Positions 8,654 to 10,577 of a stretch of 64,000 bases of DNA are shown piece after piece (position 1 is the first letter of the stretch; each line of letters starts with the position of its first letter). Source of the stretch: Tagaea sp. (lineage in GTDB: Bacteria; Pseudomonadota; Alphaproteobacteria; CACIAM-22H2). Made by a program: the position numbers and the translations under genes. A model generated the notes under the pieces. It made no database searches and was not told the origin of the DNA. It was given only the letters and a program-made list of their open reading frames with translations. The stretch is from assembly GCA_965279525.1 (NCBI GenBank), contig CBDIIB010000005.1, forward strand, positions 608,001 through 672,000, written 5' to 3'.

Positions 8654-9721
8654 ATGCAGAGCCGCACCCTCGCCATCCTCGCCTTGTCGGCCGCCATCGT
8701 CGGCGGGGCCGCCGTGATCGCCACCGGCGGGCGCAACGACGCGTCCGACGCCGATCCCGCGGGCAAGCTCGTGTTCCCCAACCTGCCCGCGCGCATCGAC
8801 GGCGTGGCGCGCATCGAGATCGAGCGCGGCGGCGAGAAGTTCGAGCTGGTGCGCGACGCCGCCGGCCACTGGACGATGCCGGCCAAAGCGGGCTATCCGG
8901 CCGATTTCCAGCTTGTCCGCCGGCTGGCGCTCGACATGGCGAACATGCGCATCCTCGAGGCGCGCACCGCGAGCAAGGCGCTGCATGCCGACATCGATCT
9001 CGACGGTTCGGGCAAGGACCAGAAGGCCGTGCGCGTGGCGCTGTCCGGCGCGCAGACCGAGCAGTTCGCCAGCGTGCTCGTGGGGCGCACGCGCTTCGGC
9101 CGGCAGGGCAATGCCGGCGACGGCACGTTCGTGCGCCGCGAGGGCGAGGACCAGGTTTGGTTCGTCCAGGGACGTGTGGGCGTGGAACGCGAACAGACCA
9201 AATGGCTTGAAAAGCGCATCGTCGACGTGGTGCGCGAGCGCGTGGCCAAGGCCGTCGTCGTGACGGCCGACGGGGCACGCCTCGAAATATCGCGCGCCAA
9301 GCACGACCAGCAGGATTTCGATCTGGCGGCGGTCCCCGCCGACAAGAAGATCAAGACGGCGTTCGACGTGAACCTCATTGCATCCGCCATCGAAGCCCTC
9401 GACCTCGAGGACGTGCGCAAGGCCGACGGCCTCGCCTTCCTCGGCCAGCGCGACTTCGCCGAATTCACGACGTTCGACGGCCTTGCCGTGCGCGTCGAAT
9501 TCGCCAAGGACGGCGCCGACATCTGGGCGCGCTTCACCGCACGCCACGCGGCTCCGGCCACGCCGGTCGAAGGCGACAAGCTGAAGAAGCCCGACGAGGT
9601 TGCCGCCGAAGCCGCACAGATCGCCAAGCGCACCCACGGCTGGGCCTACCGCGTGCCGGCCTACAAGGCCGAGCAGATGAGCCGGAAGATCGCCGACCTC
9701 GTCGAGGACAAGGGCGCCTGA
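8654..9721 (+). CDS. DUF4340-like exported protein
   Basis: N-terminal anchor; usual fourth gene of Gld-like ABC operons. Confidence 0.75.
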   Translation: MQSRTLAILALSAAIVGGAAVIATGGRNDASDADPAGKLVFPNLPARIDGVARIEIERGGEKFELVRDAAGHWTMPAKAGYPADFQLVRRLALDMANMRILEARTASKALHADIDLDGSGKDQKAVRVALSGAQTEQFASVLVGRTRFGRQGNAGDGTFVRREGEDQVWFVQGRVGVEREQTKWLEKRIVDVVRERVAKAVVVTADGARLEISRAKHDQQDFDLAAVPADKKIKTAFDVNLIASAIEALDLEDVRKADGLAFLGQRDFAEFTTFDGLAVRVEFAKDGADIWARFTARHAAPATPVEGDKLKKPDEVAAEAAQIAKRTHGWAYRVPAYKAEQMSRKIADLVEDKGA

Positions 9722-9751
9722 ACGAGGTCAGGCTCCAGCTCGAATCCCTTA

Positions 9752-9764
9752 CAATACATTGATT
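9752..9764 (-). promoter_or_regulatory. IHF-binding-site match
   Basis: Minus strand AATCAATGTATTG matches WATCAANNNNTTR exactly. Confidence 0.5.
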
Positions 9765-9939
9765 TAGTTTATATTTTTACGCTCGCCGGCATATCAAGTG
9801 AGCCGCGCGCCACCCCCATTCGTGGTATTCCAATTTTGAGATAGCCCCTACCCATTGTGGTGCGCTAGCGTGTTAGGTATATGGCCGAATTGCAATTTTT
9901 GATTCGCAATCGCTGTGCAGGTCAGATTAGAATGTTGGA

Positions 9940-10446
9940 ATGCACTGCGAGACCCTCGCCAAAAACGCGCCTTCGGGCGCGATCCCGGTTGCTATCGAAG
10001 AGCTCTTCGAGAAGCTGCGCCTTGCGCGTGTCAATCGGGAAAAGGCCGAAGCGACGGTCGAAGAAGAACAGGCCAATGCCATCCAGCTCGAGCGTCTGAT
10101 CGCTGGACTGGTCGCTCTTCTCCCGGCGGCCGATCAATCCAAATACCGCGCTAGGCTGAGTCCGGCGGCACCGTCGAAGGGCGGCATTGTCTTCGACAAC
10201 GTCGTCAGCCTTTTCCGCGATGCTCCGAATCAACAGTGGACGCCGACGAGCGTTCAGGCGGCGCTTGAAAAAAAGGGCGTCAGTGCCGACACAAAAGCAA
10301 TCGCAAATATCCTCGCCTATTTGGCGCGGTCCGGAAAACTGGTGCGAGCTGCTCGCGGACATTACGTCTCGCAAGGCTGGATGATCGTCACGAGCGACGA
10401 AATCGAAGCCGATGAGATGAGCCGCGAAAAGTTCGCCGAACTGTAA
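9940..10446 (+). CDS. Hypothetical protein, N-terminal coiled coil plus C-terminal winged-helix-like domain
   Basis: 168-aa ORF; ILAYLARSGKLVRAARGHY resembles a wHTH recognition helix and wing; TAGAAT at 9928-9933 would give a leaderless transcript. Confidence 0.65.
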   Translation: MHCETLAKNAPSGAIPVAIEELFEKLRLARVNREKAEATVEEEQANAIQLERLIAGLVALLPAADQSKYRARLSPAAPSKGGIVFDNVVSLFRDAPNQQWTPTSVQAALEKKGVSADTKAIANILAYLARSGKLVRAARGHYVSQGWMIVTSDEIEADEMSREKFAEL

Positions 10447-10450
10447 GGAG

Positions 10451-10484
10451 GAAAAGAAAACGCCGCCGGTTGGATCGGCGGCGT
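10451..10484 (-). terminator. GC hairpin with A-tract upstream (minus-strand terminator-like)
   Basis: AAAAGAAA followed by ACGCCGCCG-GTTGGAT-CGGCGGCGT. Confidence 0.5.
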
Positions 10485-10491
10485 CAGGAAA

Positions 10492-10577
10492 ACCAGGGTG
10501 GCGAAAATGGTAGACGCAACAGAGTTGGATTCTGTGGGTCCGTGGTGGCCGTGTGGGTTCGAGTCCCGCCCCTGGTA
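10492..10577 (+). tRNA. Non-canonical tRNA: class II Leu-type body with TGG (Pro) anticodon
   Basis: Acceptor ACCAGGG/CCCTGGT + A73; D arm GCG-AAAATGGTAGA-CGC; anticodon arm ACAGA-GTTGGAT-TCTGT; long V arm GGTC/GGCC; T arm GTGGG-TTCGAGT-CCCGC; CCA not encoded. Confidence 0.8.

What the first reader, a model, noticed from the sequence alone, without database searches (positions are those of the whole stretch)
10492..10577. tRNA with leucine identity elements but a proline (UGG) anticodon
Seen: cloverleaf with a long variable arm, a Leu-type D loop (AAAATGGTAGA), A15/U48, discriminator A73, A1-U72, and anticodon loop GT-TGG-AT in a perfect 5-bp stem. Known: bacterial LeuRS largely ignores the anticodon and reads A73 plus the class II elbow; tRNA-Pro is class I with C1-G72 and G37. 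Inference: it would be charged with Leu and decode Pro codons (Pro-to-Leu mistranslation). G32 and A37 are also atypical. A weaker alternative register (one G-G mismatch, U37) would give a GGA anticodon.
Basis: partly seen in the sequence, partly recalled or inferred. Interest (0 to 1): 0.85.

Follow-up and report, generated by a model that had tools for sequence, protein, structure and literature searches.

The report
Mobile leucine-type tRNA with proline anticodon
A real, intact tRNA gene shaped like a leucine tRNA but carrying a proline anticodon lies on a small foreign insertion, and it belongs to a widespread, apparently undescribed family of such tRNAs that travels with one kind of jumping gene.

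Summary
Window 10492-10577 (+) is an intact class II tRNA gene with a Leu-type D-arm, A73 and anticodon UGG.

It is not a mutated host gene. It is 58-65% identical to the genome's five tRNA-Leu genes. It lies in a 1.1-kb insertion missing from same-genus relatives and flanked by a 17-bp att-like duplication.

It has many relatives. 47 of 53 pattern hits among 185,579 species are class II tRNA(UGG) genes. 25 of those 53 loci carry an IS1595-family transposase. Two more were found through the transposase, with no constraint on the anticodon, and both read UGG.

In the window's subfamily:
- an upstream hairpin has a 7-nt loop identical to the anticodon loop
- a second, non-decoding tRNA-like gene usually follows
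- antisense promoter and terminator signals overlap the tRNAs
- all helices covary

Charging with Leu and Pro-to-Leu decoding fit the identity elements but are untested. Charging by ProRS or a regulatory role remain open. My searches found no published description.

The parts
9707..9723 (.). Left copy of the duplicated target (attL-like), GACAAGGGCGCCTGAAC. It overlaps the stop codon of the DUF4340 gene.
   Evidence: The empty site in relatives G019, G011 and G017 reads GACAAGGGCGCCTGAGC. The left copy differs from it at position 16 only.
9724..10859 (.). Strain-specific insertion of about 1.13 kb. The 1-kb stretch 10001-11000 that holds most of it has GC 0.586.
   Evidence: It is missing from the five same-genus relatives whose flanks were aligned and matched on both sides: G019, G011, G017, G014 and G010. 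In the three whose junctions were read (G019, G011, G017) the flanks abut. It is single-copy in G000. Contigs of X2 and X3 also show the empty junction.
9748..9775 (+). Promoter-like site (CTTACA-16-TATATT) at the left end of the insertion, upstream of the ORF.
   Evidence: Consensus scan only, 9 of 12 matches.
9940..10446 (+). Orphan ORF P0001 (168 aa). It occupies the position where relatives have a small winged-helix protein.
   Evidence: No Pfam or NCBIfam family. Only itself found among 5.8 billion proteins. The model shows N-terminal helices followed by a helix-helix-helix-hairpin C-terminus, pLDDT 72.8. Homology to the relatives' protein is not shown (hhalign E 0.33).
10461..10483 (+). 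Hairpin with an 8-bp stem (CGCCGCCG/CGGCGGCG) and the 7-nt loop GTTGGAT, identical to the tRNA's anticodon loop. Read on the minus strand it is an intrinsic terminator.
   Evidence: The loop is the same in all 14 aligned relatives, though 10 of the 13 relatives came from a search that required it. 5 of 8 stem pairs show compensatory changes, with no G-U pairs. A minus-strand terminator is called at 10485-10459 with tail TTCTTTTCCT. Folding energy is -20 kcal/mol, z -3.8.
10492..10577 (+). Class II, Leu-type tRNA gene with anticodon UGG. This is the finding.
   Evidence: ARAGORN. Rfam 47 bits. Covariation in every helix across 14 relatives.
10603..10705 (+). Second tRNA-like gene, 103 nt. It has a Leu-like D-arm and a canonical T arm and acceptor stem. 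Its 'anticodon' arm is a 7-bp helix with a 4-nt loop, and its variable arm is about 30 nt. It cannot decode in the standard way.
   Evidence: Rfam RF00005 33.8 bits. Not called by ARAGORN. Cloverleaf fold at -50.3 kcal/mol, z -3.3. Homologous partners are in L038 (26.7 bits) and L021 (53.4 bits) and appear in most metagenome copies.
10691..10719 (-). Antisense promoter-like site. The -35 TTGACT is the complement of AGTCAA at 10714-10719. After a 17-nt spacer, the -10 CAGGAT lies inside the T arm of the second tRNA-like gene, at 10691-10696.
   Evidence: The same arrangement, TTGACT or TTGACA, then 17 or 18 nt, then TAGGAT, scores at least 9 of 12 in 9 of 15 distinct subfamily members. The window's copy scores 8 of 12. 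Consensus matches only.
10860..10876 (.). Right copy of the duplicated target (attR-like), GACAAGGGCGCGTGAGC.
   Evidence: It differs from the empty site at position 12 only. This is the pattern expected from a crossover between two similar 17-bp sites.

Best explanation
The gene is a functional, horizontally acquired hybrid-identity tRNA with a Leu-type class II body and the proline anticodon UGG.

It is the hallmark RNA of a mobile module. The full form of that module holds:
- a small winged-helix protein gene
- a hairpin that copies the anticodon loop
- the tRNA
- often a second, non-decoding tRNA-like RNA
- an IS1595-family transposase

The window holds a transposase-less copy. It entered between two convergent housekeeping genes by recombination at a 17-bp site.

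Most likely course (inferred):
1. The tRNA is transcribed with the upstream ORF.
2. It is cut out by RNase P and given its CCA end.
3. LeuRS, which does not read the anticodon, charges it with leucine.
4. It then reads CCA and CCG (possibly all CCN) codons, in competition with the three genuine tRNA-Pro genes, putting some Leu at Pro codons.
5. Its dose is held down by convergent or antisense transcription that ends at the hairpin.

Shown: sequence, fold, covariation, foreign origin, family and linkage. Inferred: expression, charging, decoding and dose control.
For: - The tRNA is real and intact.
- It is under selection as an RNA on the plus strand. Across 14 relatives 98.6% of cells are paired, against 40-50% with slid partners. 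19 of 32 pairs change on both sides, and 0 of 500 shuffles reach the observed values. G-U pairs are frequent in the tRNA helices, which only the plus strand tolerates.
- Features of aminoacylated tRNAs are kept. A73 occurs in 57 of 60 distinct members, and CCA is encoded in 12 of 60.
- Leu-type traits are present, namely the D-arm, A14 and the class II arm. The nearest annotated genes in the phage collection are tRNA-Leu, in 5 of 10 records.
- E. coli Leu identity rests on A73 and A14, and the anticodon arm is dispensable for charging (PMC9976931, passages).
- UGG is kept where the search did not demand it, in L100 and L153, 2 of 2. The identical hairpin loop argues the same way.
- The gene is foreign: 58-65% identity to the genome's own Leu genes but 79% to L049.
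- Linkage to the transposase: 25 of 53 genome loci carry one. On the transposase tree, tRNA-linked and tRNA-less proteins separate with a single change (SH-aLRT 98).
- Engineered tRNA-Leu(UGG) is strongly harmful in yeast (PMC11028032, abstract and passages). That fits a need for dose control.
Against: - No expression, charging or decoding data exist. No RNA run was available.
- The tRNA also has ProRS determinants: G35, G36 and A73, and A37 as printed in the review. 4 of 60 family members even have the tRNA-Pro pair C1:G72.
- G32 with U38, and U33 with A37, can close the loop to three bases in the thermodynamic fold. That could cripple decoding.
- The exact copy of the loop in an upstream hairpin, and the antisense signals, are not needed for a plain decoder.
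- The transposase shows no Pro-for-Leu recoding, 0 of 216 cells. No gene of the element is therefore known to need the tRNA.
- A harmful mistranslator is an odd thing for a mobile element to keep.
- The window's copy lacks the transposase, and its antisense -10 is weak at 3 of 6.
- The 53-locus family was found with a pattern that fixed TTGG and part of the D-arm.
Confidence: 0.4

Rival explanations
1. It is a regulatory or structural RNA of the mobile module, not a working adaptor. It keeps a tRNA shape for stability and processing. Through its anticodon loop it would act in one of two ways. It could pair with the complementary loop of antisense or transposase 3'-end transcripts. Or it could compete with the look-alike hairpin for a loop-binding factor such as the small winged-helix protein.
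For: - The hairpin loop GTTGGAT is identical to the anticodon loop in 14 of 14 relatives, while its stem covaries.
- A minus-strand terminator lies at the hairpin, and an antisense promoter sits in the last T arm.
- 17 of 60 distinct tRNAs have a minus-terminator-like hairpin upstream. None of the 60 has a plus-strand one.
- In many loci the transposase gene converges on the tRNA within about 150 nt.
- The partner tRNA-like gene cannot decode.
Against: - A73 in 57 of 60 and encoded CCA in 12 of 60, the canonical T and D loops, and a strict 5-bp stem with a 7-nt loop are what charging and decoding require.
- A mere antisense partner would not need a conserved UGG and a Leu-type body across nine phyla.
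- The promoter and terminator calls are consensus matches only.
Confidence: 0.25
2. It is charged by ProRS and serves as an extra, oddly shaped tRNA-Pro. In that case there is no mistranslation.
For: - G35, G36 and A73 are strong ProRS determinants in E. coli, and A37 is printed in the same list (PMC9976931, passages).
- UGG is conserved throughout the family.
- 4 of 60 members carry C1:G72 and 12 of 60 carry G37.
- This would make the cargo harmless.
Against: - The window's tRNA has A1-U72, not C1:G72.
- It has A15:U48, not G15:C48.
- It has a long variable arm.
- 42 of 60 members have G1:C72.
- There is no reason to keep a Leu-type body for tens of lineages if proline were the load.
Confidence: 0.15
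3. In this genome the copy is an inert relic. It would be a leftover of a larger element that lost its transposase, and is silent or too weakly expressed to matter.
For: - G000 has no IS1595 transposase of this type.
- Only window 10442-10741 is homologous to other copies.
- The ORF beside it is an orphan.
- The antisense -10 is degraded to CAGGAT.
- A strain without the insertion coexists in the same samples.
Against: - Every helix of the tRNA, the hairpin and the second tRNA-like gene is intact.
- A promoter-like site and an open 168-codon frame lie upstream.
- Decay would be expected to break pairs first.
Confidence: 0.15
4. It is an assembly error, or a recent A35-to-G point mutation in a host tRNA-Leu(UAG).
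For: UAG and UGG differ by one base. Over 185,579 genomes a few pattern hits could arise this way (my estimate).
Against: - The genome keeps its own tRNA-Leu(UAG), which is only 65% identical to this gene.
- Independent contigs agree at the anticodon.
- The hairpin repeats the same loop.
- Relatives with covarying stems keep UGG.
- The gene lies on a foreign insertion.
Confidence: 0.02

Closest known systems
tRNA-ProX (ProA, ProN, ProT) with ProRSx of Streptomyces and Kitasatospora
   Same: These are natural bacterial tRNAs whose body identity and anticodon disagree, and they can mistranslate (review PMC11415595, section 17 passages and section 18).
   Different: They pair a Pro-type body with Ala, Asn or Thr anticodons and come with a dedicated synthetase. 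Here a Leu-type body carries a Pro anticodon, and no synthetase gene lies in the 1.1-kb insertion or among the conserved neighbours. Here the linkage is to IS1595 transposases.
Nematode nev-tRNAs
   Same: They are class II, long-variable-arm tRNAs with anticodons that belong to neither Leu nor Ser. The paper is titled as decoding an alternative code for leucine (PMC3333845, search listing and abstract).
   Different: They are eukaryotic and nuclear, with other anticodons (Gly and Ile, recalled). They are not borne on a mobile element and have no hairpin mimic.
allo-tRNAs and irregular tRNA polycistrons (Mukai et al. 2017)
   Same: They are rare bacterial tRNAs with long variable arms and mismatched anticodons. 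They occur in tandem with other irregular tRNAs, near toxin-antitoxin or transposon-related genes, and possibly have non-translational roles (PMC5389517, passages).
   Different: allo-tRNAs have 8/4 or 9/3 acceptor/T stems, Ser or Ala identity and many different anticodons. This family has the canonical 7/5 form, Leu-type traits and UGG only. The paper's main text has no 'transposase', 'UGG' or 'tRNALeu'. Its supplements were not seen.
Engineered tRNA-Leu(UGG) and tRNA-Ser(UGG) mistranslators
   Same: The design is the same: an anticodon-blind synthetase charges a tRNA that reads Pro codons. In yeast the Leu version sharply reduces growth (PMC11028032, abstract and passages).
   Different: Those are laboratory constructs in eukaryotes. 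This one is natural, bacterial and conserved.
Anticodon-arm mimics in mRNA leaders (thrS operator) and antisense control of transposases (IS10 RNA-OUT). Both are recalled, not checked.
   Same: In one, a hairpin copies a tRNA's anticodon loop. In the other, a small RNA overlaps a mobile element's transcript on the opposite strand.
   Different: Here the mimic lies in the tRNA's own leader, about 8 nt before its 5' end, not in a synthetase mRNA. The overlap is with the tRNA genes themselves. No binding partner is known.

Membership tests
tRNA (Rfam RF00005) | Cloverleaf with a 7-bp acceptor stem, a D arm, a 5-bp anticodon stem with a 7-nt loop and U33, and a T arm with GTTCRA | tested here: met
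   47 bits against a gathering score of 29. ARAGORN call. All helices covary in 14 relatives.
Bacterial tRNA-Leu | A73, A14, a Leu-type D loop and a class II variable arm | tested here: met
   Read from the sequence. The D-arm matches the genome's own tRNA-Leu genes. Identity rules are from PMC9976931 passages.
Bacterial tRNA-Leu | Anticodon for a Leu codon (NAG or NAA) | tested here: not met
   The anticodon is UGG, and it is kept in relatives.
Bacterial tRNA-Leu | Aminoacylation by LeuRS | not testable with these tools
   Needs an in vitro or in vivo charging assay.
Bacterial tRNA-Pro | Anticodon G35 and G36, and A73 | tested here: met
   UGG and A73. Determinants as listed in PMC9976931.
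Bacterial tRNA-Pro | C1:G72 (G72), Levitt pair G15:C48 and a short class I variable loop | tested here: not met
   A1-U72, A15:U48 and a 17-nt variable region. The genome's own tRNA-Pro genes are class I with C1:G72.
allo-tRNA | 8/4 or 9/3 acceptor/T-stem arrangement | tested here: not met
   7-bp acceptor stem and 5-bp T stem.
tRNA-ProX / ProRSx system | Pro-type body, a non-Pro anticodon and a linked ProRSx gene | tested here: not met
   The body is Leu-type and the anticodon is a Pro anticodon. No synthetase domain was found in the ORFs scanned around it.
IS1595-family insertion sequence | DDE transposase with an N-terminal zinc ribbon (PF12762 with PF12760, NF033547) | tested here: not met
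   For the window's copy, no such gene exists anywhere in G000. In relatives it is present: 25 of 53 genome loci, with Pfam and NCBIfam matches and invariant D, D, E and four Cys.
IS1595-family insertion sequence | Terminal inverted repeats and a short target duplication enclosing the tRNA | tested here: inconclusive
   No clear terminal repeats were found. L052 and L065 share a 1.27-kb unit holding both the tRNA and the transposase. In L049 and L070, however, the transposase lies in different places relative to the tRNA.

The most novel reading that the evidence does not exclude
The module is a self-contained 'toxic tRNA' system carried by mobile DNA. A leucine-charged tRNA misreads proline codons, and its level is set by an antisense RNA made from a promoter inside the neighbouring tRNA-like gene and ended at the anticodon-loop-mimic hairpin. 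The pair would then work like a type I toxin-antitoxin or addiction device, or as a switch for stress-induced proteome diversification. It would spread with IS1595-type transposases across at least nine bacterial phyla.
Probability: 0.15. Interest if true: 0.95.

Novelty: new variant of a known kind. Interest (0 to 1): 0.8.

Why it matters
Natural tRNAs whose body and anticodon disagree are rare, and they show how flexible the genetic code is in living cells. The bacterial cases in the reviews I read are Pro-type, Sec/Cys-type or allo-tRNAs.

A conserved Leu-type tRNA with a proline anticodon, found in at least nine phyla and tied to one lineage of transposases, would be the first natural bacterial candidate for Pro-to-Leu mistranslation. 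It would also be the first tRNA known as a regular companion of an insertion sequence.

It is directly testable with a charging assay, a reporter and strand-specific RNA-seq. The hairpin that copies the anticodon loop hints at a control mechanism not seen before.

It also matters for annotation. Such genes are labelled tRNA-Pro by anticodon alone.

Tried and rejected
**Searches that found nothing or too little**
- RNA evidence: no RNA holder was listed for the insertion. Only DNA contigs could be laid.
- The plasmid collection holds nothing like the insertion.
- P0001 has no homologue in 5.8 billion proteins and only a weak PHROG match at E 0.042.
- hhalign of P0001 against the relatives' upstream protein gave E 0.33 and probability 0.18%. 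Homology is therefore not claimed, only the same position and a similar predicted layout. The Atlas neighbours are leads only.
- Foldseek with the upstream-protein model found no PDB match at E 0.001 or better. The best matches were winged-helix domains at E 0.036 and above.
- The upstream-protein family has 79 members at E 1e-5 or better. None has a Pfam family, and almost every source name is 'hypothetical protein' (one row reads FliH).

**Recoding idea, rejected**
- At 8 columns where tRNA-less transposases have conserved Leu, the tRNA-linked ones have Pro in 0 of 216 cells.
- The two invariant Pro columns of the upstream protein use mixed codons.

**Ends of the mobile unit, inconclusive**
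- Searches for inverted repeats and comparisons of ends gave no clear result.

**Other readings rejected**
- The alternative GGA register.
- A point mutation of the host tRNA-Leu(UAG).
- Rfam's only other hit near the hairpin is a weak minus-strand match to suhB/mmgR at 18.9 bits against a gathering score of 41. I read it as terminator likeness.

**Limits of the family searches**
- The pattern used fixed TTGG and GGTAGACRC, so it cannot show that UGG is the only non-Leu anticodon on Leu-type bodies.
- The pattern used fixed GGTTGGATC in the hairpin and GTTGGAT in the anticodon loop. Loop identity in L070-L086 therefore follows partly from the search. L021, L038 and L049 came from the pattern, which did not demand the hairpin.
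- Of the 53 hits, 6 were not called as this tRNA: L017 (cut by the end of the locus), L023, L024, L033, L047 and L053.
- A few hits without a transposase may be errors or recent mutants (my estimate).

**Literature**
- Six searches, together with passages of PMC11415595, PMC7609411 and PMC5389517, gave no report of a bacterial Leu-type tRNA with a Pro anticodon or of a tRNA linked to IS1595.
The supplements of PMC5389517, which list many irregular tRNAs, may hold such sequences.

**Not used**
- Complex prediction and the search of protein representatives.

Full report
**1. The observation**

The window holds one ARAGORN tRNA, tRNA-Pro(tgg) at 10492-10578. Rfam's tRNA model scores it 47 bits at 10492-10577. 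Read from the sequence, it has these features:
- a seven-pair acceptor stem (A1-U72) and A73, with no encoded CCA
- a 3-bp D stem with a Leu-type D loop
- a perfect five-pair anticodon stem and the loop G-U-U-G-G-A-U
- a 17-nt variable region with a 4-bp stem
- a canonical T arm

The genome (4.35 Mb, 5 contigs) already has tRNA-Pro CGG, GGG and UGG. It also has tRNA-Leu UAG, UAA, GAG, CAA and CAG. Contigs from public runs cover the region with no differences and list no variant at the anticodon. They come from one study and at most two samples, and may be the assembly's own source. The alternative GGA register is not supported.

**2. It is foreign**

The gene is 58-65% identical to the genome's five tRNA-Leu genes and 55-57% identical to its tRNA-Pro genes. 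A 321-bp probe found no homologue in 40 relatives. The 3 weak matches (E 2e-5 to 1.5e-4, about 75% identity) covered only the tRNA's 5' half.

A 4-kb probe found both flanks in several same-genus genomes. Five of these were aligned and matched on both sides: G019, G011, G017, G014 and G010. None has window 9724-10859. In the three whose junctions were read (G019, G011, G017) the flanks abut.

The empty site reads GACAAGGGCGCCTGAGC. The insertion is flanked by two copies of this site, and each differs from it at a different single position. That is the pattern left by a crossover between two similar 17-bp sites. I infer site-specific or short-homology recombination, not a classic 8-bp transposon duplication.

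The insertion lies between the DUF4340 gene at the end of an ABC-transporter operon and a convergent DUF4440 gene, upstream of a class II ribonucleotide reductase. Contigs from two runs also show the empty junction, so a strain without the insertion lives alongside.

**3. It has a family**

A pattern fixing part of the Leu-type D-arm, TTGGR in the anticodon loop and the T loop found 53 loci among 185,579 species genomes. ARAGORN of them class II tRNAs with anticodon tgg. The pattern also found 9 viral contigs.

By record titles and tree labels the hosts span at least nine phyla: Pseudomonadota, Acidobacteriota, Chloroflexota, Gemmatimonadota, Planctomycetota, Bacteroidota, Myxococcota, Krumholzibacteriota and Binatota.

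| Feature, over 60 distinct well-paired sequences | Count |
|---|---|
| A73 | 57 |
| 1:72 is G-C | 42 |
| 1:72 is G-U | 8 |
| 1:72 is C-G | 4 |
| A37 | 48 |
| G37 | 12 |
| CCA encoded | 12 |

The pattern forces UGG, so these counts alone cannot show that UGG is special.

**4. Linkage to IS1595 transposases**

A protein of about 305 aa lies near the tRNA. It matches PF12762 with PF12760 and NF033547, at 191-220 bits.
- It occurs in 25 of the 53 genome loci, in 14 of the 15 metagenome loci listed, and in 2 of the 9 viral loci.
- In a dozen loci from several phyla the gene converges on the tRNA and stops within about 150 nt of it.
- In Alphaproteobacteria, 80 of 401 genomes hold a homologue at E 1e-30 or better, about 180 matches in all. 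By my rough estimate, a random 8-kb stretch would hold one about once in a thousand.
- I examined 70 transposase stretches from that search, chosen without regard to tRNAs. Only two have a linked class II tRNA, L100 and L153, and both read UGG. Five of the 70 are from the unpublished genome G264.
- On a tree of 55 transposases, the 28 without a tRNA form one group (SH-aLRT 98) and the 27 with a tRNA lie on the other side, a single change.
- The catalytic D, D, E and the four zinc-ribbon Cys are invariant in all 55.
- L052 and L065 share a 1.27-kb unit at 92.6% identity, with unrelated flanks. It holds a tiny ORF, a hairpin, the tRNA, the transposase and the transposase's promoter.
- The transposase sits in different places in L049 and L070, and I could not define terminal repeats. 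I therefore call the tRNA a constant companion of this transposase lineage, not proven internal cargo.
- G000 has no such transposase.

**5. The window's subfamily**

Three genome loci (L021, L038, L049) and 17 metagenome contigs share the window's arrangement. Ten of the 13 relatives used for the alignment below came from a pattern that required the hairpin-loop and anticodon-loop sequences. L021, L038 and L049 did not.

- **Hairpin.** A hairpin lies just upstream of the tRNA, at 10461-10483 in the window. Its 8-bp stem covaries in 5 of 8 pairs and has no G-U pairs. Its 7-nt loop, GTTGGAT, is the same in all 14 aligned relatives and is identical to the anticodon loop.
- **Covariation.** Over 14 distinct sequences, 98.6% of 442 cells are paired, against 40-50% with slid partners. 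19 of 32 pairs change on both sides, and no shuffle in 500 reaches the observed values. The tRNA helices hold many G-U pairs, which would be A-C mismatches on the other strand. The tRNA is therefore selected on the plus strand.
- **Minus-strand terminator.** The hairpin follows an A-rich tract. On the minus strand this makes it a textbook intrinsic terminator. Over the whole family, 17 of 60 tRNAs have such a minus-oriented hairpin upstream, and none has a plus-oriented one.
- **Second tRNA-like gene.** It follows in most copies, at 10603-10705 in the window (33.8 bits). Its acceptor stem, D arm and T arm are tRNA-like. Its middle varies from copy to copy. In the window it is a 7-bp helix with a 4-nt loop plus a 30-nt variable arm.
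- **Antisense promoter.** About 10 nt past the last tRNA lies the conserved motif AAGTCAA. On the minus strand this is a -35 TTGACT, placed 17 nt from a -10 TAGGAT inside the T arm. 9 of 15 distinct members score at least 9 of 12. The window scores 8 of 12, with CAGGAT.
- **Small upstream protein.** In relatives a protein of 105-187 aa ends at the hairpin. Its model is a long helix followed by a winged helix, and its family has no Pfam family or informative name. The window has the orphan P0001 in that place.

**6. What it most likely does**

The conserved cloverleaf, A73, the occasional encoded CCA and the strict anticodon arm are what a charged, decoding tRNA needs.

By the rules quoted in a recent review, E. 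coli Leu identity rests on A73 and A14, and the anticodon arm is dispensable for charging. Pro identity rests on G72, G35, G36, A73 (A37 is also printed there) and G15:C48. The window's tRNA meets the Leu set. It meets only the anticodon-and-A73 half of the Pro set.

A Leu-type body kept together with UGG over long evolutionary distances suggests that the mismatch itself is the point. I therefore favour leucylation and some Leu insertion at Pro codons.

The engineered equivalent is very harmful in yeast. The antisense unit, the convergent transposase transcription and the odd G32-U38 loop may all serve to keep the activity low.

None of this is tested. The loop-mimic hairpin is not explained by decoding at all. 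I could find no gene of the element that needs Pro read as Leu.

**7. Comparison and novelty**

The closest known cases are:
- tRNA-ProX with ProRSx
- nematode nev-tRNAs
- allo-tRNAs
- laboratory tRNA-Leu(UGG) and tRNA-Ser(UGG)

It works most like a nev-tRNA or an engineered tRNA-Leu(UGG). It is not a member of the allo-tRNA or ProX families, because their defining features fail here.

The searches and passages I read gave no report of this family or of its tie to IS1595. Supplements were not available.

I rate it a new variant of a known kind, the hybrid-identity tRNA. Its mobile-element setting, its anticodon-loop mimic and its antisense signals are new.

**8. Verdict**
- Observation: confirmed.
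- Interest: 0.8.

Noticed in passing
window 10603-10705 (+): A second tRNA-like gene lies 25 nt after the first. It has a Leu-like D arm and a normal T arm and acceptor stem. Its 'anticodon' arm is a 7-bp helix with a GCUA loop, and its variable arm is about 30 nt. Rfam scores it 33.8 bits, and ARAGORN misses it. Its partners in other loci differ widely in the middle part.
   Followed up: partly
window 11333-11427: A palindromic repeat of about 95 bp, just upstream of the ribonucleotide reductase gene. It has many copies in G000 and in several same-genus genomes, at 75-88% identity and on both strands. It looks like a REP- or MITE-type element.
   Followed up: no
G000 contig C5:749716-749811 (-), outside the window (locus L166 2217-2312): ARAGORN calls a 96-nt 'tRNA-Ile(tat)' with a long extra arm. 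Rfam finds no tRNA there at its gathering score. It may be an irregular allo-tRNA-like sequence or a false call.
   Followed up: partly
L045 1962-2048; L063 6935-7009; L066 6328-6402; L037 1130-1203; L086 975-1061: Other odd tRNAs lie beside the UGG tRNA in other genomes. They include a Leu-type class II tRNA with anticodon UGA, one with a four-base anticodon loop call (tccc), and class I tRNAs with GCU or ACU anticodons.
   Followed up: no
L100 292-375 (-): A transposase-linked Leu-type tRNA(UGG) whose anticodon loop reads UCUGGGA, with C33 in place of the near-universal U33.
   Followed up: no
L030, L042, L067, L029, L048, L059: the 60-80 nt upstream of the tRNA: In another subfamily the tRNA is preceded by a longer conserved GC-rich structured stretch, beginning GGGTCGGGCCGGAT..., instead of the loop-mimic hairpin. 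Rfam named nothing there in L042.
   Followed up: no
window 9717-9721, runs X2 and X3: Contigs from the same samples carry the uninterrupted (empty) site. Strains with and without the insertion therefore coexist.
   Followed up: partly
L075, L079/L082, L080/L084, L086: between the tRNA and the transposase, minus strand: A small conserved helix-turn-helix-like protein of 75-100 aa lies between the tRNA cassette and a co-directional transposase gene. It has no family match beyond a marginal sigma-factor region hit.
   Followed up: partly
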